Shown: positions 20,876-55,776 of the stretch, in pieces
Numbering within the stretch: position 1 is the first letter of the stretch
Layout of the letters: the number at the start of each line of letters is the position of its first letter
DNA from: Escherichia coli
GTDB taxonomy: Bacteria; Pseudomonadota; Gammaproteobacteria; Enterobacterales; Enterobacteriaceae
Assembly: GCF_046105845.1 (NCBI RefSeq)
Contig: NZ_CP151004.1
Reading direction: 5' to 3' (one strand)
Length of the DNA stretch: 64,000 nucleotides
Notes under the pieces: model-generated
The model's database searches: none
The model's input: only the letters and a program-made list of their open reading frames with translations
Told to the model about the DNA's origin: nothing
Position numbers and translations under genes: made by a program

Positions 20876-20963
20876 ATATTACCGGAGATATGACAGAGTG
20901 AAGATCAATATCACTCCCCTGTTAAAAGATTCTTGTCGTCTCAGGTAAAATACATGATTAATA

Positions 20964-21848
20964 TCAATCATGTATTTTTACAGCAAGACAACCACGAACA
21001 AATTCAGGATTAAAATGTTTTACCGACTCCCCAACATAACCCAAATCAAGCGAACTAATTTGTGCCATTTCTTTCTCTGTCAGTGAGAAATCCCAGATAG
21101 CAAAATTTTCTTCGATACGCTGTTGATGTGTCGATTTCGGAATAACGACCACTCCCCGTTGAATATTCCAACGCAGAATGACCTGAGAAATCGATTTTTG
21201 ATGGGCATCTGCAATACTCTGAAGCAGATTATTTTCAAAGGGTTTATGTCGTCCACCACCTAACGGAGCCCATGCTTCAGGCTGCACGTTATAATACTTC
21301 ATGGTTGCCAGCGCCTCTGGTTGGGCAAAATAGGGATGCAACTCGACCTGGTTGACCATCGGTTTAACTCTTACCGTTTCACAAAAGTTCGCCAGAACAT
21401 GAGGGTAGAAATTGGAAACCCCAATCGCTTTTAATTTGCCCTCTTCATAGGCATCTTCGAGTGCACGCCACGCACTGAAATAATCGCGCATGGCCTGGTG
21501 CAATAAAAAGAGATCGAAGTATTCCAGTCCCGATTTTTTTAATGATTCTTCAATACCTGCTGCTGCAATATCCTGATTCAACATATCCTGCACCCACAAT
21601 TTAGACGTTATAAATAACTCTTCTCGGGTACATAAACCTTCAGATATGGCTTCACGAACGGCTTCACCGACGGCATCTTCATTACCGTATACCGCTGCAG
21701 TGTCGATGAGTCGATAACCCGTGCGGATAGCATTCAACACTGACTGTTTGCACACGTTTTTATCGGTAACCTGAAAAACACCAAATCCCATCATCGGCAT
21801 TTTCAGATTGTTACTTAATACGGAAAATTCCACTGTCAGTCCCTCCAT
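20964..21848 (-). CDS. Aldo-keto reductase (intact)
   Basis: 294 aa; AKR motifs ([23 protein letters not shown]); paralogous to the AKR at 27879-28730. Confidence 0.85.
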   Translation of the reverse strand: MEGLTVEFSVLSNNLKMPMMGFGVFQVTDKNVCKQSVLNAIRTGYRLIDTAAVYGNEDAVGEAVREAISEGLCTREELFITSKLWVQDMLNQDIAAAGIEESLKKSGLEYFDLFLLHQAMRDYFSAWRALEDAYEEGKLKAIGVSNFYPHVLANFCETVRVKPMVNQVELHPYFAQPEALATMKYYNVQPEAWAPLGGGRHKPFENNLLQSIADAHQKSISQVILRWNIQRGVVVIPKSTHQQRIEENFAIWDFSLTEKEMAQISSLDLGYVGESVKHFNPEFVRGCLAVKIHD

Positions 21849-22048
21849 TAGGCATGAACAATGAGTCTACGTTAAAACATAACCTCAAATTAGTATGTGG
21901 ATTTTGATATCACTTATGCAAAAAATTCATTAATAATGTAGGACTGAAACCTCTCTATTTTCGGGGACAACGAAGCAGACGCTACCAGTGCTTTTGCCTT
22001 GGGCCTTGCTGTTTTTGATACACTTAGGGCCCAGGGCATAACGAAAAT

Positions 22049-22939
22049 GTGCGATATGACAAAGAATTAATGGAGAATGTGATGATCAGGCAGAAGATTC
22101 TACAGCAGCTCCTGGAGTGGATTGAGTGCAATCTCGAGCACCCTATTTCAATCGAAGATATCGCACAGAAATCTGGCTACAGCAGACGCAACATCCAGCT
22201 TCTGTTCCGAAATTTCATGCATGTGCCTTTGGGAGAATACATTCGCAAACGAAGGCTTTGTCGCGCCGCCATTCTTGTCCGGCTCACCGCGAAATCTATG
22301 CTTGATATTGCACTCTCTTTGCATTTTGACTCACAGCAGTCATTCAGCCGCGAATTTAAAAAGTTATTCGGCTGCTCTCCCCGTGAATACCGCCACCGTG
22401 ATTATTGGGATCTCGCAAATATCTTCCCTTCTTTTTTAATACGTCAACAGCAAAAGACGGAGTGTAAATTAGTCAACTTTCCTGAGACACCTATTTTTGG
22501 CGATTCATTTAAATATGACATTGAAGTGTCGAATAAATCACCGGATGAAGAAGTCAAACTGCGACGTCATCATTTAGCCAGATGTATGAAGAGTTTTAAG
22601 ACGGATATCTATTTCGTCTCCACATTCGAACCGTCAACAAAATCGGTCGATTTGCTCACAGTTGAAACTTTTGCCGGTACGGTATGCAAACAAACCGATT
22701 CAGAGATGTCGAAAGAGTGGACAATTAACCGAGGACTGTATGCCTCTTTCCGCTATGAAGGTGAGTGGGAGCACTACCCTGAATGGACGCGAAACCTCTA
22801 TCTGATGGAATTACCTGCCAGGGGGTTAGCCAGAGTGAACGGCAGTGATATTGAGCGATTTTATTACAATGAAAACTTCGTCGAAATTGATAGCAATAAC
22901 ATTGTTTGCGAAATTTTTATCCCCGTTCGCCCGGTTTAG
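22049..22939 (+). CDS. AraC-family transcriptional regulator (ykgA-like), N-terminal HTH
   Basis: 296-aa ORF; N-terminal AraC-type HTH (ISIEDIAQKSGYSRRNIQLLFRN...FKKLFGCSPREYR); true start may be M8 or M12. Confidence 0.75.
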   Translation: MRYDKELMENVMIRQKILQQLLEWIECNLEHPISIEDIAQKSGYSRRNIQLLFRNFMHVPLGEYIRKRRLCRAAILVRLTAKSMLDIALSLHFDSQQSFSREFKKLFGCSPREYRHRDYWDLANIFPSFLIRQQQKTECKLVNFPETPIFGDSFKYDIEVSNKSPDEEVKLRRHHLARCMKSFKTDIYFVSTFEPSTKSVDLLTVETFAGTVCKQTDSEMSKEWTINRGLYASFRYEGEWEHYPEWTRNLYLMELPARGLARVNGSDIERFYYNENFVEIDSNNIVCEIFIPVRPV

Positions 22940-22993
22940 CTGTAGCGATGTTTACATGAATTTATAACGAGACTACTGTCAGGCAATTCAATA

Positions 22994-23026
22994 AATAATG
23001 GCGTTGAAGATGTCAACGCCATTATT
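22994..23026. terminator. 14-bp perfect stem hairpin (aataatggcgttga-agatg-tcaacgccattatt) followed by T-rich tract; bidirectional terminator between AraC gene and eaeH
   Basis: Seen directly between convergent gene ends. Confidence 0.6.
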
Positions 23027-23059
23027 GTTTATTAGAATGTTACTTTCATATTCTTAATA

Positions 23060-26000
23060 TTATTTCATCGCCTCCTCGCCCTTTGCCGTATCGGCATCCA
23101 CCGCGGTTATGGTCACCGTCACTGGCTTCATTTCGTACCCGCCATACGTCAGGGCGTTAAATGTAAACGTATAGACACCTGGCTTGTTGGTACTAAATTT
23201 ACGCGTGATTTTTCCGCTCACGAAATGGTCATTTTTCGACGGCAGGAATTGATAATCCTTCTCCGTCACTCCTTCCGGAGCCTCAATGTCGACCCACACA
23301 TTCCCCCCAACAGGGTTATTTGCCGAGAACAGGGTAACCGTCATTGTTGCGGTCTGTACCCCATCCGCCACCAGAGAAGTCACATCAGATGATGCGGCGA
23401 GCACCGCGTTTTTATCATCCGCGACGAATTTAGATTCAGCAGTTTTCGTCGATTCCTGACCGTTGGCCTGTTCCACTTTCGCCGTGAGTGTATATTTCGC
23501 TGCGACAGTGGTCGTGGCGGTGAAAATAGCCTGCCCTTGCTCATTAGTTTTCGCCGTCCCATCGGGATCCAGAGCTAAATTTGCCGGGCTGGCAGTCAGC
23601 GTCACCTCGCTATCTTTCAACAGGTTGTTATTGGCATCAGTCACCGTAACTTTATACGTCTGTTTGGCTTTGCCGTCCGCCAGTGCATAGTTGCCAATCA
23701 CCTCAATACTGGAAACGGTTGCGGTAGCCTTATCGGCTACAAACGTTATAGTCTGCGTATTCGAAGGCTGGCTATTCCCTGCCGATGCCGTGATCTCATA
23801 CGTTCCGGCAGTCACTGAAACCACCTGCAACTCTGCTTTCCCCTCATCGTTGGCTTTCACCCAGACATTATCGCCTGTAAGCGGCTTGACACCCCGGGGC
23901 AGATTAAAGGTCACCAGAGTTCCTGGAACAGGGTTACCGTTTTTATCCTCAACGGTCGCCGTCAGCGTAAAGGCATCTTTGCCGTTTGCCACTTTTTGAA
24001 CGGCGGTGTTAACCTGCAGGTTTGCCTGACCGGTGCTGGCATCCGCGTTGAATTTCACCGTGACCGTCTTCTGAGAGTTTTTCACCACGGCCGCGATTTC
24101 AAGTTCCCCTGCAACGGTTGATATCAACTCAATATCCGCTTTACCTGCCGCATTGGTTGTTACTGTATTCCCCGTATTGCTAGTCACACCCTGCGGTAAA
24201 GTCAGCGTAACTTCTTGCCCCTGCAACGGGTTACCATAGCTGTCCACGACGGTCAGGGTTATCTGGTTAGCAGACTGTCCATTAGCCAGTTGGTTATTAA
24301 CCTTCACTGTCATATCACGAATCTCAGCCTGAGAAGCGTCACCTGCAACGTTCAGCACCAGTGGCTGAGCAACGGCATTTTGGCCGTTCACTCGCGGCAT
24401 CACAGACAACTGACCCGCAGCCGATCCCAGCGTTAAGGTCGCAACATAGATGCCGTTACTTTGCTCTGTCCAGCTTCCTGCTGAAGGACGCTCACTCCCC
24501 GTGCTGGCGGCACCGCTAAACACTGGTGCATCTGGCTTCAGCCCGGTGACCGGGTTCCCGTACGCATCCTTCACGGTGAAGGTGAGTTCCGTCGTCGTTT
24601 TAACCGTTGGAGTCTTATTGTCCGCAACAAGCGTAGAGTTCGCTGATGACATCTCCCCGGCGATGACCGTCAACTGCGCGGCTTCGGTGGCTGCTGGCTG
24701 GCCGTTGAAGAGAGGCATGACACGAAGCTCGCCCGTCTTTCCGCCTGTGGTCAACGTAGCAACATAGGAACCGTCACCTTTTTCGGTCCAACTGGAAATA
24801 GTCGCCCCTTCAGAGGCGGTCCCCGTCAAACTTGCCGACAACGAAAGACCACTGATAGCGTTGCCATGCGCATCTTTCGCCACCAGCGTCACGGTTGTGC
24901 TTTCACCGGCTTTTACGTGATCTTCTGCGACAGAGACTTTCGACTGGTTTGAAGATAACGCATCAGCCACCACGGTTACTTTTGCCGCGTTTGCTGCCGC
25001 ATCCTGTCCATTTAGCTTCGGCATAACTTCTAATTCACCCGCCGTAGAGCCGAGAGTAATCTGCGCAGTCCACGTTCCATCACCATTATTTGTCCAGCCA
25101 GATGCTGTAGAACCTACAGCCGCAGCACCCGCTAATGACGGCGCTTCCGGCGTGAGGCTGGTCACAGGGTTGTCATAGGCATCTTTTGCCGTCCAGATTG
25201 CCGTAACTGTACCGCCAACCACCGGTTTATCAGGATTCAGTGTGATGGACGAATGTGCTGCATCAAGCGGCCCGGCAACAAACTTCAGCGTTTGTTGTAA
25301 TGTGCCCAGCTGATACTGCTCGCTGAAGGCACGCACAACAACGTTTCCGGCACGGGTCGAAGAAACCGTGGCGCTGTAAACCCCAGGTTTTATTTCCGAA
25401 ATGGCACCAACGGTAACACCATTAGTGTCTTGCGGAACAAGTCGCAGGCGGCTGGCTTCTCCCGTCACCGGATTACCCTCGGAGTCCACCGCAGTCAGCG
25501 TCAGCGTGTAGGCTTGCTGACCATCAGCAACCACGTCACCTGACAGCTCGTTAGCGCTCAGGGTGGAGTTTGCCACATCCATCATCGTGGCCCGCAGTTC
25601 TGCAGTGACGGTTTTGCTCATGCCATCAACGCTAACAGTAATCGTTGCCTCACCTGACTGCGTTCCGGTCGTAAAGACAGACTGGTACACCCCTGCTTCA
25701 GTTTCGGTGAACTCACCCAGTGTGGGCTGTGCCTGTGATTTAGTGGCCTTCAGGGTACGAGTCACAATATTTCCAGCCGGTTTGAAGGTTAGTTCAGTCT
25801 TGATCTGATCTTTCATGCCCGTGACTGGCTGGCCCTCGGCGTCGCGCAGAGACAGCACCAGCGGCTTTTGCTCATTACCGTTAGCAAGCATTTGAATACG
25901 GCTCTGACCGTCAAGCGTTAACGCCGTACGATCGGCGCTCATACCAGCTCCGCTAATAACCACTTCTGTCTGCACACGTTTCGAGGCATTGCCTTTGTTA

Positions 26001-27313
26001 TCGTAGGCAATCGCTGAAATCGCATAATAATTGTCTTTGCCTGGACGATAAGCCGGGAGCGTTACTTGCCACTGACTACCCTGACCGGTAATTTTGCCAC
26101 CTTCAGCCAGTAATGACGGCGCTTCCCACTGCACATTTTTCAGTCCGTGAGTTGCTTTGCTGACCACAAGCCCCAGGGAAACCGTCTGACCGCCCTTACC
26201 TTCAATCCGCTCAGGCAGAGCAATACGGATCACTTCAGATTTGCGGTACTCAAGAACGATGTTGTTATTACGCTCAACCAGGTCATAGCGGCTGCCTGCC
26301 AGCATTCGACGCTCGCGAATGCTGTCTGTATCGAGTTGTTTTTGCAGAGGTTCGCCAATCCGATAATTAACTTCCAGGCCAAAGCGAGTGTCATTCTCAC
26401 CACTCTTGCCCTGCTTATGCCCGGCGCTCAGTGTCAGAAGAGGCACTGGTGTATAGGTTACCTCGGCAGAAATAGCATGCGGGTCTTTCTGGCGTTTATC
26501 TTTACCAAACAGCCCGACTTCATCACCATAATACTGCTCATACATCAGGCTTGCGCCAAGCTGCGGCCAGGCAGGTAAATAGCCCTCAGCACGAATATCC
26601 CAGCCATTCGCCGGGCGTTCCTGATAATCCTCAACATCCGGCGATTTTTTCCAGCCAGAAGCCCGAATATAACCATTGGCGCTCAGTTTCAAATAATCGC
26701 GCCAGTATTCCGCACCAACACCAATCCGGGTATGACTACGGGATAAATCATGATCGATAAAAGTATTCACCCCCGCCATCCAGTCATTTCCTGAAAAATG
26801 ACGCCAGCCAAAACCAATATTTGACTGAGTACGATCGTCGGTACGATGTATTGCCCCCTGAGTGAACAACATATTTGTCGGCGTATCATAAATAGGATAA
26901 AGCATTTCCAGCGAAGAATCCTTCAGCGAGAAATCTTTATCGACATTCAGTTTGACGCGCGCAGTACCGTATTTCCCGAGCCACTCCTGAATTTCCTGGT
27001 TAGCTTTAGCGGTGGCCATTCCGGTAATAAAGTTACGTGTCGCATCGCTATCTGGCTGACTGCTTAAAAATGTCCCGGCATTTGCGGCAAACGACGCGAC
27101 ATTTTTCTCCACATTATTATCAGCAGCTACTGTGGTATTTTCCATGCTCAAACGTGGCTGAACCGTATGCTGCGCACGTGCTGCCATTACTGGCGTAAAG
27201 GTGACAGCGAGTGGAAAAAGAACCTGAACAGAGATATTTGCCCACGCCACGCAGCGGGCCAGAACTGAATAACGAAATCGTGGTTGTTTATGACCTGTTT
27301 TATAACGTGACAT
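23060..27313 (-). CDS. eaeH: Full-length inverse autotransporter (intimin/invasin family) adhesin EaeH/FdeC
   Basis: 1417 aa; N-terminus MSRYKTGHKQPRFRYSVLARCVAWANISVQVLFPLAVTF and repetitive Big-domain passenger match recalled FdeC. Confidence 0.92.
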   Translation of the reverse strand: MSRYKTGHKQPRFRYSVLARCVAWANISVQVLFPLAVTFTPVMAARAQHTVQPRLSMENTTVAADNNVEKNVASFAANAGTFLSSQPDSDATRNFITGMATAKANQEIQEWLGKYGTARVKLNVDKDFSLKDSSLEMLYPIYDTPTNMLFTQGAIHRTDDRTQSNIGFGWRHFSGNDWMAGVNTFIDHDLSRSHTRIGVGAEYWRDYLKLSANGYIRASGWKKSPDVEDYQERPANGWDIRAEGYLPAWPQLGASLMYEQYYGDEVGLFGKDKRQKDPHAISAEVTYTPVPLLTLSAGHKQGKSGENDTRFGLEVNYRIGEPLQKQLDTDSIRERRMLAGSRYDLVERNNNIVLEYRKSEVIRIALPERIEGKGGQTVSLGLVVSKATHGLKNVQWEAPSLLAEGGKITGQGSQWQVTLPAYRPGKDNYYAISAIAYDNKGNASKRVQTEVVISGAGMSADRTALTLDGQSRIQMLANGNEQKPLVLSLRDAEGQPVTGMKDQIKTELTFKPAGNIVTRTLKATKSQAQPTLGEFTETEAGVYQSVFTTGTQSGEATITVSVDGMSKTVTAELRATMMDVANSTLSANELSGDVVADGQQAYTLTLTAVDSEGNPVTGEASRLRLVPQDTNGVTVGAISEIKPGVYSATVSSTRAGNVVVRAFSEQYQLGTLQQTLKFVAGPLDAAHSSITLNPDKPVVGGTVTAIWTAKDAYDNPVTSLTPEAPSLAGAAAVGSTASGWTNNGDGTWTAQITLGSTAGELEVMPKLNGQDAAANAAKVTVVADALSSNQSKVSVAEDHVKAGESTTVTLVAKDAHGNAISGLSLSASLTGTASEGATISSWTEKGDGSYVATLTTGGKTGELRVMPLFNGQPAATEAAQLTVIAGEMSSANSTLVADNKTPTVKTTTELTFTVKDAYGNPVTGLKPDAPVFSGAASTGSERPSAGSWTEQSNGIYVATLTLGSAAGQLSVMPRVNGQNAVAQPLVLNVAGDASQAEIRDMTVKVNNQLANGQSANQITLTVVDSYGNPLQGQEVTLTLPQGVTSNTGNTVTTNAAGKADIELISTVAGELEIAAVVKNSQKTVTVKFNADASTGQANLQVNTAVQKVANGKDAFTLTATVEDKNGNPVPGTLVTFNLPRGVKPLTGDNVWVKANDEGKAELQVVSVTAGTYEITASAGNSQPSNTQTITFVADKATATVSSIEVIGNYALADGKAKQTYKVTVTDANNNLLKDSEVTLTASPANLALDPDGTAKTNEQGQAIFTATTTVAAKYTLTAKVEQANGQESTKTAESKFVADDKNAVLAASSDVTSLVADGVQTATMTVTLFSANNPVGGNVWVDIEAPEGVTEKDYQFLPSKNDHFVSGKITRKFSTNKPGVYTFTFNALTYGGYEMKPVTVTITAVDADTAKGEEAMK

Positions 27314-27863
27314 TGAGATAATTTCCTGATGAACGAATTAACGAACATAGGCAGACACAAATAATGGCGTCTGCTTGTCAGAAAAACCGGGGATTTCCCG
27401 GTTTCCTTTTCCGCAGAAAAGGAAATACCTTTATGTAAGAAAGTACACCGCCACCTAATATATCCAGTGTCTGTAGCCACTCATCAGGTGGTTGGGCGCG
27501 GGATTATATTTTTATTTATGGGTAAAAATTTAGCTTTTTGTGCAAGTTATTAAATAGATACTTAAGTTATATTTCTTACTCTGCGGGCAGTGAATAATTC
27601 ATTATTAAGAGTGAATAATAATGACCTGTCTTTAATTAATCGCTATTGGGAATACGTCGAAGTAGGTATATACACCAGGATAAACCAATATATTTTTTAT
27701 GGATATTCATTTTCCTTCATCAGACTGTGAATTGCAGGGATATCGAACTTGCACGACTCATCGCAACACTCAAACAGATTTATGAATTTCGTTCATAACC
27801 CCTGACAAATCCTGCCGTCTAATCGAGCTTTTCCCTTTACGTTATGCTTCTCATGAACGATAA

Positions 27864-30730
<2,867 letters not shown>

Positions 30731-30870
30731 CTATTATTTTAGCCACATTATTAGTAACAATGATAATCTGGCTGTATCGAAAATAATTCTAAACTTTCAG
30801 GAGATTTATTATGAATAAACGTATCCTCACGATTGCGCCATTCTTCTTACCGATATTCTGACACATATCA

Positions 30871-31797
30871 TCAATTTTCGAGTTTTACTCTTTTCTCCAC
30901 CATAAAATCAATAAAAGCACGAACTTTAGAGGGCATTCTCACCCGTGATGAAACATATATATAAAATCCAGGAAATGAAACGGCCCAATCCTCAAGAATC
31001 GGCTGTAACTTGCCCGCATTAATATGTTCAGCGATTGCAAAATCCAGATGTTGAATGATACCCGTTCCATTCAGCGCCATTCGTATCATGCTTTCGTCAT
31101 CATTAGAAATATACTTACCTGACACCTCTATTTCGAACTCTTCATTACCCCCCACAACATTCGAAAACTCCCATGCAGAGAGTGCACCGCTACTTTTATG
31201 CCGCAACCGAAGACAATTATGGTTACTCAATTCCTGAGGCGTTTCAGGAATACCGTGTTCTTTTAAATAATCTGGCGATGCCACAGTAACCAGTTTAATA
31301 AGCGGAGAAACAGGAACGGCAGTCATATGCTCATCCAGTCCTTGCTCAAGACGTATGCCCACATCACAGCCGTCCGCAATAATGTTAGATAAACCGTCAT
31401 CCATAATGAGTTCTATCTTTGTTTTGGGGTAACGAGTAAGAAACTCGCCAATATGAGGCTCAACAAGCATCCGTGCTGCAACACGGGAGGAATTTATTCT
31501 CAACAGGCCTGTAGGTTCAAGTTGGGTATCACCAACATCTTTCAAAGCATCATCAATTTGTCCCAAAGCCGACACCAGCACTTCATACAGACGCTGTCCT
31601 TCCTCAGTAAGCGACATATTGCGGGTCGTACGGTATATCAGCTTGGTGTTAAGACGTTCCTCAAGAGATTTTAAATTCTGGGACAATGCGGCCCGCGTAA
31701 TACCCATTTCAGAAGCGGCTCTGGAAAAACTGCCGGCACGAACAATAAGCGCAAACCAGGCAAGAGAAGGCAAAATTGAAGGCTCTATTTTCATCAT
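30871..31797 (-). CDS. LysR-family transcriptional regulator
   Basis: LysR HTH (LAWFALIVRAGSFSRAASEMGITRAALSQNLKSLE); start taken at MMKIEP. Confidence 0.8.
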   Translation of the reverse strand: MMKIEPSILPSLAWFALIVRAGSFSRAASEMGITRAALSQNLKSLEERLNTKLIYRTTRNMSLTEEGQRLYEVLVSALGQIDDALKDVGDTQLEPTGLLRINSSRVAARMLVEPHIGEFLTRYPKTKIELIMDDGLSNIIADGCDVGIRLEQGLDEHMTAVPVSPLIKLVTVASPDYLKEHGIPETPQELSNHNCLRLRHKSSGALSAWEFSNVVGGNEEFEIEVSGKYISNDDESMIRMALNGTGIIQHLDFAIAEHINAGKLQPILEDWAVSFPGFYIYVSSRVRMPSKVRAFIDFMVEKRVKLEN

Positions 31798-31953
31798 TGT
31801 AAACCTTAACTTAACACTGTGATAGATATTAGACCATTGATGATAACCAATACAAGTCATACTATTACGCCGTTCTCGATATGAACACAAATGCCAGTTG
31901 CGGATAATAGAAATGATATTTAAATCTGTTTAGGCAAATCCCCGGAGCTTGAA

Positions 31954-32874
31954 ATGAAAACTGTTTCGATAAAACACACTTACTGGGATATAGCTGCTGA
32001 TATCTATTTCCCTGACGATTTTAATAGTAAAAAAAAGTATCCTGCCATTATCAGCGCCCATCCAATTGGAAGCTGCAAAGAACAGACATCGGGTAGTGTG
32101 TATGGTGCCGCCCTGGCAAAAGCTGGCTTTATCGTCATTGCTTTTGATGCCAGTTTTCAGGGAAGCAGCGGTGGGGAACCGCGTTATCTGGAAGATCCAA
32201 CAATGCGAGTAAAAGACTTCAGCATTGTCGTTGATTACCTTACCAGCTTACCTTACGTTGATGCCGGGCGTATTGGTGTACTGGGTATTTGTGGTGGAGG
32301 TGGATATGCCATTAATGCCGCAATGACAGAACGTCGAATTAAAGCTATTGGTACTGTCACGGGTGCAAACTACGGGCGTCTTATGCGTGAGGGATTTACA
32401 GCGTTTAATCCTATCGGAGCACTCGAAGCAATGGCGCAACAAAGAACAGACGAAGCTAACGGCGCAAAACTTCGCGTAGATGATTTACTCCCCTCTTCTC
32501 CAGATGCAGCTCTTGAAGCGGGATTAACAGAAATAGACCTTTTTGAAGCCACAGAATATTATCGTTCGCCACGAGGCTGTGCACCTAATGGGGTAAATCG
32601 TTCGCTATTCTCACATCAGACTGTTGCCGTGGGTTGGGATGCATTTCATCTTGCAGAAGTCCTGTTAACTCAACCAATAATGGTTGTGGTGGGCGATAGA
32701 GTGGGCGCATTTGGTGCCTACCGTGACGGCTGCGAAATTATTGGCCGCGCTGCCTCAAAACATAAAGAGCTGGTCGTGGTTGAAGGTTATTCACATTACG
32801 ACCTGTATGATAAGCCAGAACCTGTGAAACAGGCGCTCGATAAATTAATTCCTTTTTATAAAACACATTTGTAA
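31954..32874 (+). CDS. Alpha/beta hydrolase, dienelactone-hydrolase-like (GxCxG nucleophile elbow)
   Basis: 306 aa; GICGGGGYAI motif; divergent from LysR gene. Confidence 0.7.
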   Translation: MKTVSIKHTYWDIAADIYFPDDFNSKKKYPAIISAHPIGSCKEQTSGSVYGAALAKAGFIVIAFDASFQGSSGGEPRYLEDPTMRVKDFSIVVDYLTSLPYVDAGRIGVLGICGGGGYAINAAMTERRIKAIGTVTGANYGRLMREGFTAFNPIGALEAMAQQRTDEANGAKLRVDDLLPSSPDAALEAGLTEIDLFEATEYYRSPRGCAPNGVNRSLFSHQTVAVGWDAFHLAEVLLTQPIMVVVGDRVGAFGAYRDGCEIIGRAASKHKELVVVEGYSHYDLYDKPEPVKQALDKLIPFYKTHL

Positions 32875-33118
32875 TAATCTTACAGGGAGATTCCTTATCT
32901 CCCTGACATTTATCCTTTATTGACTACACAACAATAATGAAATTACTCAAAAAGAAATTTCATTAAAGAAACAAAAAAGCAGTAACTCAATCATTAAGAT
33001 TATTAGAAACCCTTTGAAGGGATTATAAATAAAGCCAGAAATCTTGGTTCCAAAGCTGGCAACAACTAACCAGTTAAAACATACGCATCAAAATCAGATA
33101 AACATTTGAGGTATTGTT

Positions 33119-34261
33119 ATGACAAATAAACACCCATCATTGTTTTCTCCTTTTATGCTGACAGAAAAAATAAAGCTACGTAATCGTATCGTTATGGCTC
33201 CTATGACGACCTGGTCAGCGAATCCTGATGGAACCATCTCTGAGCAAGAACTCGAATTTTATAAACGCCGCTCACAAAATGTTGGTTTAGTAATAACAGG
33301 ATGCACCTATGTCACGCCAAGCGGCATTGGGTTTACTCATGAATTTGCCGCGTATGACGACCGTTTCATTAACAGCCTTGAAAAGTTAGCAGCTGCAGCC
33401 AAAAGTGGCGGTGCTCCGGCTATTTTGCAGATTTTCCACGCCGGTAATAAAGCCATCCCGGAGCTTGTGCCAAATAACGATGTTATTAGTGCCAGCGCAT
33501 CAAGCGTAAAATCTGGTGATTTTATGAAGAGAGTGGTACAAAGCAGGGAAATGACTGAAAACGAAATTCAGGAAACCATTAGAGCATTCGGAGATGTCAC
33601 AAAAAGGGCGATTAAAGCAGGTTTTGATGGCGTTGAACTTCATGGTGCGCACGGATTCCTTCTGCAGAATTTCTTCTCCCCTCTATTTAACCAGCGTAAT
33701 GACCGATGGGGAGGAGATCTTGAAGGACGTATGCGCTTCCCGCTGGCCGTATTACAGGAAGTAAAAAATGTAGTCTATGAATATGCGACAAAGCCCTTTG
33801 CTATCGGTTACAGAATATCTCCTGAAGAATCTGTAACAGGGGGGCTGCGGATAGAGGATACTTATAAACTCCTTGATCGACTCATTTCATCCGGTATTTC
33901 GTATATACATACCTCGCTGGTCAGTATTAACGATAGCTACCCTGTTGAGTCGCCAAATGGCCCCCGAACTATTGAATTGATTTTAAATCATATTGCAGGC
34001 AGAGTGCCGGTAATCGCTGCAGGTAAAATACGCACACCGTCTCAGGCTCAAGAAGCAATTTCCGCTGGCCTGCCACTTGTTGCGATCGGTAAAGGGCTGG
34101 TGATAAATCCAGAATGGGTGACTTTAGCTGAATCAGGTAGAGGCCATGAAATTCAAACAACCCTTAATCCACAACTTGTTCCTGAATTAACCATTCCGGA
34201 TAAACTATGGGATCAAATTCAGGCATCGAAAGGAACTGGCTGGTTTCCGTTAATGGATTAA
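33119..34261 (+). CDS. NADH:flavin oxidoreductase, Old Yellow Enzyme family
   Basis: 380 aa; OYE-like N-terminus (RNRIVMAPMTT...QIFHAGNKA...ELHGAHGFLLQNFFSP). Confidence 0.8.
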   Translation: MTNKHPSLFSPFMLTEKIKLRNRIVMAPMTTWSANPDGTISEQELEFYKRRSQNVGLVITGCTYVTPSGIGFTHEFAAYDDRFINSLEKLAAAAKSGGAPAILQIFHAGNKAIPELVPNNDVISASASSVKSGDFMKRVVQSREMTENEIQETIRAFGDVTKRAIKAGFDGVELHGAHGFLLQNFFSPLFNQRNDRWGGDLEGRMRFPLAVLQEVKNVVYEYATKPFAIGYRISPEESVTGGLRIEDTYKLLDRLISSGISYIHTSLVSINDSYPVESPNGPRTIELILNHIAGRVPVIAAGKIRTPSQAQEAISAGLPLVAIGKGLVINPEWVTLAESGRGHEIQTTLNPQLVPELTIPDKLWDQIQASKGTGWFPLMD

Positions 34262-44107: not shown

Positions 44108-44355
44108 ATATGCAATAATTAATTGCACTGCCCCGCCAGCTATAATCGCGGGGCTTCGTTTTTCAGGGATAACAAAACCCGAAACTTCTTCCATCTGCCA
44201 GCAACAATGCCTCTTCCTCTATAGTGTTCTCCGGATCTACAGCATCCTGAAGTAGCGCGATGTACTCATTGGCTATCTGCGTCAGAAAGTTAAAAACAAT
44301 GTTTTTAACCTATAAAAATGGCGCTGTATTTGCGCCATTTTTATCATTCAATGCA

Positions 44356-53836: not shown

Positions 53837-54061
53837 ACGTTAATAACGACCGACTCTTCACTGTGCAACATTGTGTCAGGTAGTCCCTCTGCGTTCAATT
53901 CCAGGGTCTGCTTTGAGCGAGAAAGAGGGGACTATCCAGCAATGGAGATCACCCAAAAGAAAAAACCACCTGGCTCCCTCGACAACCTTCATCCAGGCAT
54001 TTAGCCTCAATCAACATTTTTATATCTGTCAGGTTACTTCATGATGAAAACTGATCATTAT

Positions 54062-54315
54062 CGTTGTTTTTGTTGCAATAGTAGAATACGCGTATTTATT
54101 CCTCCATCTCTATTAATAACGGCAATAAACTGTTCACTTCACTGATATTTAAAATATGTATCCTTTTCAAGCTGTTCAGCGGCGTAAGAAAAAGTATTAA
54201 TTATGAATTCGACGATTTAACCATATCTGTCTGATTGGTAATCATCCGTGATTAATGTTGGTCTATTGATTACGCCAGCATTAACCGCTTAGGGATGTAT
54301 TCTTCCTGTTGATAT
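54062..54315 (+). repeat. Degenerate paralogous copy of the ykgR 3' half fused to the ykgO 3' end plus downstream sequence
   Basis: About 90% identity over about 100 bp to 34776-34885 and about 75-80% over about 145 bp to 35561-35705, by eye; ykgM/ykgO and the Zur box are missing from this copy. Confidence 0.7.
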
Positions 54316-55700: not shown

Positions 55701-55776
55701 TGGTGCCGATAATAGGAGTCGAACCTACGACCTTCGCATTACGAATGCGCTGCTCTACCAACTGAGCTATATCGGC
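55701..55776 (-). tRNA. thrW: tRNA-Thr (anticodon CGU)
   Basis: 76-nt cloverleaf read on minus strand: GCCGATATAGCTCAGTTGGTAGAGCAGCGCATTCGTAATGCGAAGGTCGTAGGTTCGACTCCTATTATCGGCACCA; anticodon loop contains CGT. Confidence 0.93.

What the first reader, a model, noticed from the sequence alone, without database searches (positions are those of the whole stretch)
23060..27313. Full-length eaeH/fdeC inverse autotransporter adhesin
The 1417-aa ORF is uninterrupted and matches recalled FdeC from N-terminus to C-terminus. In K-12 as I recall it, this gene is truncated and flanked by IS3. Here no IS element is present and the neighbouring AKR and ykgA-like AraC genes are also intact, suggesting this strain retains an ancestral functional adhesin locus.
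Basis: partly seen in the sequence, partly recalled or inferred. Interest (0 to 1): 0.45.

Follow-up and report, generated by a model that had tools for sequence, protein, structure and literature searches.

The report
Intact fdeC (eaeH) adhesin gene
This is an intact copy of the well-known E. coli surface adhesin gene fdeC (eaeH); most E. coli strains carry it whole and the truncated K-12 laboratory copy is the exception, so the finding is correct but ordinary.

Summary
Window 23060..27313 (minus strand) is one uninterrupted 1417-aa ORF. It encodes a complete inverse autotransporter: an IAT beta-barrel (aa 76-350) followed by about 10 Ig-like domains (aa 358-1403). RefSeq annotates the same ORF as 'fdeC' in an O169:H41 genome that differs by 1 nucleotide. 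It aligns end-to-end with other FdeC alleles (92.5-96.7% aa identity, at most 3 gap columns). It is about 95.7% identical to the crystallised FdeC fragment (PDB 4E9L).

The K-12 recollection is also correct. MG1655 keeps only the first ~292 codons. IS3A replaces window 22743..26437, which holds the rest of fdeC and the 3' end of ykgA. K-12 also lacks window 27865..34169 and most of the AKR gene at 20964..21848. The window has no IS3 sequence.

None of this is new. An intact fdeC (>=80% coverage) is in 4585 of 5426 complete E. coli genomes. Nesta et al. 2012 (PMC3324786) already described the gene, its locus, its ~99% prevalence and the K-12 pseudogene. The allele is an uncommon mosaic of common segments, which is typical of this gene. 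Function and expression cannot be tested from sequence. Verdict: already known, low interest.

The parts
23060..27313 (-). fdeC (eaeH) coding sequence, 1417 aa, intact
   Evidence: ORF. (RefSeq fdeC of the same length, 1 nt different). (end-to-end alignment with 3 other alleles).
27173..27313 (-). Predicted long Sec signal peptide (aa 1 to ~47: basic n-region, hydrophobic core, A-R-A then QH)
   Evidence: Read by eye from the translation. No signal-peptide predictor was run, so this is an inference.
26264..27088 (-). Inverse-autotransporter beta-barrel domain (aa 76-350)
   Evidence: Pfam IAT_beta PF11924, E=6.2e-109, model positions 3-279 of 279; matches the invasin (4E1T) and intimin (4E1S) barrel structures at aa 113-357.
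23105..26242 (-). Passenger: about 10 tandem Ig-like (Big_1/Invasin_D3) domains, aa 358-1403. No LysM or C-type lectin domain among the reported hits.
   Evidence: Pfam. (intimin D00 6TQD at aa 358-466). (aa 595-1008 about 95.7% identical to FdeC fragment B, PDB 4E9L). Heinz 2016 reports 10 Big domains.
27314..27878 (.). 565-bp AT-rich intergenic region between divergent fdeC and the AKR gene; presumed fdeC promoter and regulatory region
   Evidence: GC about 0.41; sequence; AGGAAA 9 nt before the ATG. The promoter scan was not above chance. H-NS control is known only from the title of Easton 2014, cited.
22994..23026 (.). 14-bp-stem hairpin between convergent ykgA-like and fdeC genes; candidate bidirectional terminator
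   Evidence: The total number of terminator-like sites in the region was not above the shuffle expectation, so this is suggestive only.
22049..22939 (+). ykgA-like AraC/Rob-type regulator, intact (RefSeq start at 22082)
   Evidence: RobA profile positions 3-286 of 286, below the equivalog cut-off. (annotation). It is a pseudogene in K-12.
20964..21848 (-). Aldo/keto reductase, intact. In K-12 it is the ykgQ remnant, with two internal deletions.
27879..34261 (.). Two AKR genes, two LysR regulators, an alpha/beta hydrolase and a flavin oxidoreductase: the rest of the published 'fdeC cluster'. Window 27865..34169 is missing from K-12.
   Evidence: genes. (K-12 deletion junction). Nesta 2012 describes the locus.
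22743..26437 (.). Segment that IS3A replaces in K-12 MG1655 (3' three quarters of fdeC plus the 3' end of ykgA)
   Evidence: alignment breakpoints. (junction sequences, no matching target-site duplication).

Best explanation
The ORF is the chromosomal core-genome gene fdeC (also called eaeH). It encodes a type Ve (inverse autotransporter) adhesin, and it is present here in its usual intact form. Inferred mechanism, from family knowledge and published work on FdeC: a long Sec signal peptide directs export to the periplasm. The N-terminal 12-stranded beta-barrel (aa ~76-350) is inserted into the outer membrane by BAM, with help from TAM. The C-terminal passenger of about 10 tandem Ig-like domains is threaded out through the barrel and forms a long rod on the cell surface. 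That rod binds host epithelial cells and collagens and promotes biofilm and colonisation. Expression is low in laboratory culture (H-NS silencing of the AT-rich upstream region) and is induced on contact with host cells. The K-12 state is derived: an IS3-associated deletion removed the passenger-coding 3.7 kb. Shown here: intactness, domain architecture, orthology, synteny, population frequency and the K-12 breakpoints. Inferred: secretion route, ligand, regulation, and whether this strain expresses the protein.
For: The ORF is intact. It is annotated fdeC in thousands of RefSeq genomes at the same locus, between the rcl and ecp operons. Pfam finds IAT_beta at E=6.2e-109 plus about 10 Big_1/Invasin_D3 domains. 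PDB matches are 4E9L (FdeC fragment B, E about 1e-249, about 95.7% identity) and the intimin and invasin barrels. Alignment with the O18 (B2), O55:H7 and VCSW7 alleles is end-to-end at 92.5-96.7% aa identity. The gene is full-length in 4585 of 5426 genomes. K-12 breakpoints and junctions are mapped. Published function and biogenesis: Nesta 2012, PMC3324786 (adhesion, collagen binding, expression on host contact, K-12 pseudogene); Heinz 2016, PMC4943183 (10 Big domains, TAM-assisted assembly, surface exposure); Goh 2019, PMC6714894 (prevalence).
Against: Nothing in the sequence contradicts it. There are limits. Expression and adhesion are untested for this allele. The promoter and terminator scans were no better than shuffled sequence. 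No NCBIfam model reached its curated cut-off, because the library appears to hold no FdeC-specific HMM; the best hit was IatC N-terminal at 642 bits against a cut-off of 2400. The signal peptide was judged by eye only. The H-NS paper (Easton 2014) is not held in the library, so that step rests on its title and on citations in other papers.
Confidence: 0.93

Rival explanations
1. The gene is intact but effectively cryptic in this strain. It is permanently silenced, by H-NS or a promoter defect, and contributes nothing to adhesion. On this reading it is an intact ORF drifting toward pseudogene status.
For: FdeC is reported as poorly expressed in laboratory culture and induced only on host contact (Nesta 2012; Heinz 2016 discussion). 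The upstream region is AT-rich. Independent inactivations occur in several lineages: K-12, BL21 and 1000C-3. About 15% of genomes lack a full-length copy.
Against: A 4.25-kb ORF without a stop, kept intact in 84.5% of genomes and conserved at 92-97% aa identity, implies ongoing purifying selection. The barrel is 98-100% identical across alleles. The upstream region and 5' end are 100% identical to the VCSW7 allele over nt 1-1500.
Confidence: 0.05
2. The ORF is not FdeC but a different E. coli inverse autotransporter (intimin, YeeJ, IatA-D, SinH-like) that the reader mis-named from memory.
For: All of these share the IAT_beta barrel and Big domains. NCBIfam lists IatC, Ilp, intimin and SinH models as the top, sub-threshold, hits.
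Against: All of those models fall far below their curated cut-offs. The locus (rclABC - AKR - ykgA - fdeC - AKR ... ykgR - ecp) is syntenic with K-12 eaeH and with RefSeq fdeC in thousands of genomes. Identity to crystallised FdeC is about 95.7%. No LysM or C-type lectin domain was reported.
Confidence: 0.01

Closest known systems
FdeC of ExPEC IHE3034 (ECOK1_0290; PDB 4E9L), also known as EaeH of ETEC H10407
   Same: It has the same chromosomal locus and the same length (1415-1417 aa). The architecture is the same: signal peptide, IAT barrel and 10 Big domains. It is 92.5% identical at the aa level to the FdeC of an O18 (B2) strain and about 95.7% identical to crystallised fragment B.
   Different: The differences are allelic only. 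They are concentrated in the distal Ig domains (Ig8 73%, Ig10 82% against the B2 allele) and the last few residues. The exact allele is near-identical (>=99%) in only 1 of 5426 complete genomes. It is a mosaic of segments that are individually common.
eaeH pseudogene (b0297) of E. coli K-12 MG1655
   Same: It is the orthologous 5' 876 nt plus the upstream region, about 96-97% identical.
   Different: K-12 lacks codons ~293-1417. IS3A sits at the breakpoint, and ykgA is truncated on its far side. K-12 also lacks 6.3 kb upstream (window 27865..34169) and most of the AKR gene. BL21 and strain 1000C-3 share the two flanking deletions but carry different fdeC lesions without an IS.
Intimin (EaeA) and Yersinia invasin
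   Same: Both are type Ve secretion proteins with a homologous 12-stranded barrel (PDB 4E1S and 4E1T match aa 113-357) and an Ig-like passenger.
   Different: The window protein has no LysM periplasmic domain and no C-terminal C-type-lectin receptor-binding domain among the reported hits. Its rod is much longer (10 Ig domains against 4-5). It is not linked to the LEE or Tir. The NCBIfam intimin model scores 380 bits against a cut-off of 1400.

Membership tests
Inverse autotransporter (type Ve secretion) family | Beta-barrel domain (Pfam IAT_beta PF11924) located N-terminal to the passenger | tested here: met
   aa 76-350, E=6.2e-109, full model coverage; matches the solved intimin and invasin barrels.
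Inverse autotransporter (type Ve secretion) family | C-terminal passenger made of IgSF/Big domains | tested here: met
   about 10 Big_1/Invasin_D3 domains between aa 358 and 1403.
Inverse autotransporter (type Ve secretion) family | N-terminal Sec signal peptide | tested here: inconclusive
   The basic n-region, hydrophobic core and A-R-A motif at about aa 45-47 are visible in the translation. No predictor was available.
Inverse autotransporter (type Ve secretion) family | Passenger exported through the protein's own barrel and displayed on the cell surface | not testable with these tools
   Shown experimentally for CFT073 FdeC by proteinase K shaving (Heinz 2016), but not for this allele.
FdeC/EaeH orthologue group | High identity to characterised FdeC (published range >91% aa) | tested here: met
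   92.5% to O18 (B2) FdeC, 95.4% to O55:H7, 96.7% to VCSW7. About 95.7% to PDB 4E9L over 414 aa. The published range is from Nesta 2012.
FdeC/EaeH orthologue group | Conserved chromosomal context (the fdeC cluster of regulators and reductases/hydrolases, between rcl and ecp) | tested here: met
   same gene order as RefSeq fdeC loci; flanks are colinear with the K-12 eaeH region.
FdeC/EaeH orthologue group | Full length (about 1415-1417 aa) with no frameshift or premature stop | tested here: met
FdeC/EaeH orthologue group | Adhesion to epithelial cells and collagen | not testable with these tools
   Known only from published experiments on other alleles.
Intimin | NCBIfam intimin_all equivalog score; LysM domain; C-terminal lectin-like Tir-binding domain | tested here: not met
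   380 bits against a cut-off of 1400; no LysM or Intimin_C/lectin hit among the reported domains.

The most novel reading that the evidence does not exclude
This particular mosaic allele is near-identical (>=99%) in only 1 of 5426 complete genomes. It has VCSW7-type ends and a different middle that includes an O55:H7-like Ig8 cassette. It could have a binding or antigenic specificity distinct from the ExPEC FdeC used as a vaccine antigen. If so, FdeC domain shuffling would generate functional or antigenic variants that matter for vaccine coverage.
Probability: 0.1. Interest if true: 0.2.

Novelty: already known. Interest (0 to 1): 0.06.

Why it matters
It matters little beyond correct annotation. 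FdeC/EaeH is a studied adhesin and vaccine candidate. An intact copy says this strain is like most natural E. coli isolates and unlike K-12 or BL21. The comparison is a reminder that K-12 is a poor reference for this region. K-12 carries at least four separate deletions within the ~13 kb between rclC and ykgR, plus a missing ~6.5-kb block between betA and ykgH. The allele-level mosaicism is relevant only to the breadth of FdeC-based vaccine coverage, and that variation has already been described.

Tried and rejected

(2) NCBIfam had no model passing its cut-off for FdeC, so orthology rests on identity, synteny and the RefSeq annotation rather than an HMM.

(3) The promoter and terminator consensus scans around fdeC were no better than shuffled sequence. 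I make no promoter claim, and the 22994..23026 hairpin is only a candidate terminator.

(4) I searched for IS3 remnants with a sensitive blastn (word size 7, E<=10). It returned only 12-20 nt chance hits.

(5) Easton 2014, the H-NS regulation paper, is not held in the library.

(6) I considered and rejected mis-identification as another inverse autotransporter; see the rivals.

(7) I chose not to spend the large protein-database or genome-contig scans on an outgroup test of 'ancestral', because the verdict does not depend on it. The only outgroup evidence is a paper reporting a 27.6%-identical homologue in E. albertii.

(8) The Rfam scan found nothing in or next to fdeC.
Full report
**Observation.** The window holds one open reading frame at 23060..27313 on the minus strand. 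It starts with ATG, is 1417 codons long and has a single terminal stop. GC content rises to 0.50-0.56 across the gene, against about 0.42-0.45 in the flanks.

**Identity.** An 11-kb stretch around the gene (window 20000-31000) matches 5216 of 5426 complete E. coli genomes. In all 30 listed top hits the ORF is annotated 'fdeC: inverse autotransporter adhesin FdeC'.
- The closest genome is NZ_CP062824.1 (O169:H41, pig faeces). It annotates a CDS of identical length that differs at 1 of 4254 nt, giving R93L. R is the residue in the other three alleles aligned.
- The window is colinear with that genome from position 1 to 55717 at 99.2% identity.

**Domain architecture.**
- Pfam finds a complete IAT_beta barrel at aa 76-350 (E=6.2e-109).
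- It finds a series of Big_1/Invasin_D3 domains at about 474-573, 579-680, 684-783, 788-885, 890-986, 1000-1090, 1097-1193, 1199-1298 and 1309-1403.
- Residues 358-466 match the intimin D00 domain (PDB 6TQD). That makes ten Ig-like domains, the number published for FdeC (Heinz 2016, PMC4943183).
- No LysM or C-type lectin domain appears among the reported hits.
- Residues 595-1008 match the crystallised FdeC fragment B (PDB 4E9L) at E about 1e-249, with 18 mismatches in 414 aligned positions and no gaps by my count (about 95.7%).
- The barrel region matches the solved invasin and intimin barrels (4E1T, 4E1S).
- The N-terminus looks by eye like the long signal peptide typical of this family. 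No predictor was run.

**Test for hidden lesions.** I aligned the translation with FdeC from an O18 (B2) strain, O55:H7 RM12579 and the soil isolate VCSW7.
- Identities are 92.5%, 95.4% and 96.7%. The alignment runs from the first to the last residue with at most three gap columns. The refutation condition 'internal frameshift or premature stop' is therefore not met.
- Variation is uneven. The barrel is 98-100% identical. Ig8 is 73% identical to the O18 and VCSW7 alleles but 95% identical to O55:H7. Ig10 is 82-100% identical.
- At the nucleotide level the allele matches VCSW7 exactly over nt 1-1500 and 3751-4257 of the alignment but not in between.
- The Ig8 segment falls into two classes across E. 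coli: about 2660 genomes are >=90% identical to the window's type and 1971 are at 80-90%.
- The allele is therefore a recombinational mosaic of common segments. The exact combination is rare: one genome at >=99%, and the next best at 97.1%. Heinz 2016 already depicts FdeC subtypes with domain-wise conservation of 60-95%.

**K-12 comparison.** In MG1655, eaeH (b0297) is an 888-bp pseudogene that abuts IS3A, followed by pseudogenes ykgA and ykgQ. ykgP lies upstream. Local alignment and junction inspection show four lesions.
- (i) K-12 retains window 27864..26438, that is, the upstream region plus the first ~292 codons.
- (ii) IS3A replaces window 22743..26437, which holds the other ~1125 codons and the 3' end of ykgA. 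The sequences flanking the IS carry no matching target-site duplication, so this is an IS-adjacent deletion and not a simple insertion.
- (iii) Window 27865..34169 (6.3 kb) is cleanly deleted in K-12. It holds two AKRs, two LysR regulators, an alpha/beta hydrolase and a flavin oxidoreductase.
- (iv) The AKR gene at 20964..21848 carries two internal deletions in K-12. One lies between 9-bp direct repeats (GATTTCTCA).

BL21 and strain 1000C-3 share lesions (iii) and (iv). They have an intact ykgA and different, IS-free fdeC lesions. The flanking deletions are therefore older and shared by that lineage, while the IS3 event is specific to K-12. IS3A finds only chance matches in the window. The second refutation condition, 'the K-12 locus is identical', is also not met.

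**How common is the intact state?** With the gene alone as query, 5077 of 5426 complete genomes have a match and 4585 (84.5%) cover at least 80% of it. In the spread sample listed there, the low-coverage hits are mostly laboratory derivatives of K-12 and BL21. Published surveys agree:
- Nesta 2012: about 99% of ExPEC and 92-100% of intestinal pathotypes, with >91% aa identity (PMC3324786).
- Goh 2019: a complete gene in 67% of 126 genomes and 83% of the ECOR collection (PMC6714894).
- Nesta 2012 also states that K-12 strains carry only an N-terminal pseudogene, and that the gene sits in a locus with up to three regulators and five reductases or hydrolases. That is the content found here.

**Mechanism.** By orthology, the protein is a type Ve adhesin.
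- It is exported by Sec. The barrel is inserted by BAM with TAM assistance, and the Ig-domain rod is exported through the barrel (Heinz 2016).
- It binds epithelial cells and collagens and is expressed on host-cell contact (Nesta 2012).
- Several papers cite H-NS and temperature control (Easton 2014), but that paper is not held in the library.
- The 565-bp upstream region is AT-rich, which is compatible with H-NS silencing. The consensus promoter scan was uninformative.
- These steps are inferred for this allele. Only intactness, architecture, orthology and context are shown here.

**'Ancestral'.** Within E. coli the direction of change is clear: the truncated copies are fragments of the full gene with different lesions. 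I did not test outgroups. One paper reports only a distant homologue (27.6% aa identity) in E. albertii (PMC11420993). The claim should therefore be limited to E. coli.

**Verdict.** Novelty: already known. Interest: low.

Noticed in passing
window 6655..13161: A block sits between betA and ykgH. It holds an ipbA (fimX/hbiF)-type tyrosine invertase (7700..8299), the LuxR regulator hyxR (8629..9423), hyxA (9577..10338) and an 877-aa autotransporter ORF (10347..12980). In K-12, betA and ykgH are adjacent, so K-12 lacks this block as well. I recall it as the PAI-X island, but I did not check that name.
   Followed up: partly
window 55701..55776: The tRNA-Thr(CGT) gene (thrW) is an unoccupied integration site. 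The window runs straight on to proA/proB/phoE/frsA/pepD. The otherwise near-identical O169:H41 genome carries a CbtA/YeeU-type island there, and colinearity ends at 55717, inside the tRNA.
   Followed up: partly
window 33119..34261: The NADH-dependent flavin oxidoreductase is an intact 380-aa ORF here. The O169:H41 RefSeq record annotates it as frameshifted.
   Followed up: partly
window 23735..24025 (fdeC Ig8): This segment of fdeC is dimorphic across E. coli: about 2660 genomes are >=90% identical and 1971 are at 80-90%. The window's allele is a mosaic, matching VCSW7 exactly at both ends but not in the middle.
   Followed up: yes
window 44150..44350 (-): An Rfam match to RF02111 'IS009' (190 bits against a gathering score of 117) lies between ykgJ and yagU. 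The 'IS' in the family name has no link here to an insertion sequence: the annotation of the colinear O169:H41 region lists no transposase gene.
   Followed up: no
window 54048..54313: A second, partial copy of the ykgR-ykgM/ykgO-adjacent sequence (91% and 75% identical to the K-12 ykgR/ykgO region). The O169:H41 genome annotates it as an incomplete ykgR next to a LysR gene. It is probably the remnant of an old local duplication.
   Followed up: no
window 21084..21192: One of K-12's deletions inside the AKR gene lies between 9-bp direct repeats (GATTTCTCA). The repeats are intact here, which is consistent with loss by slipped or illegitimate recombination.
   Followed up: partly
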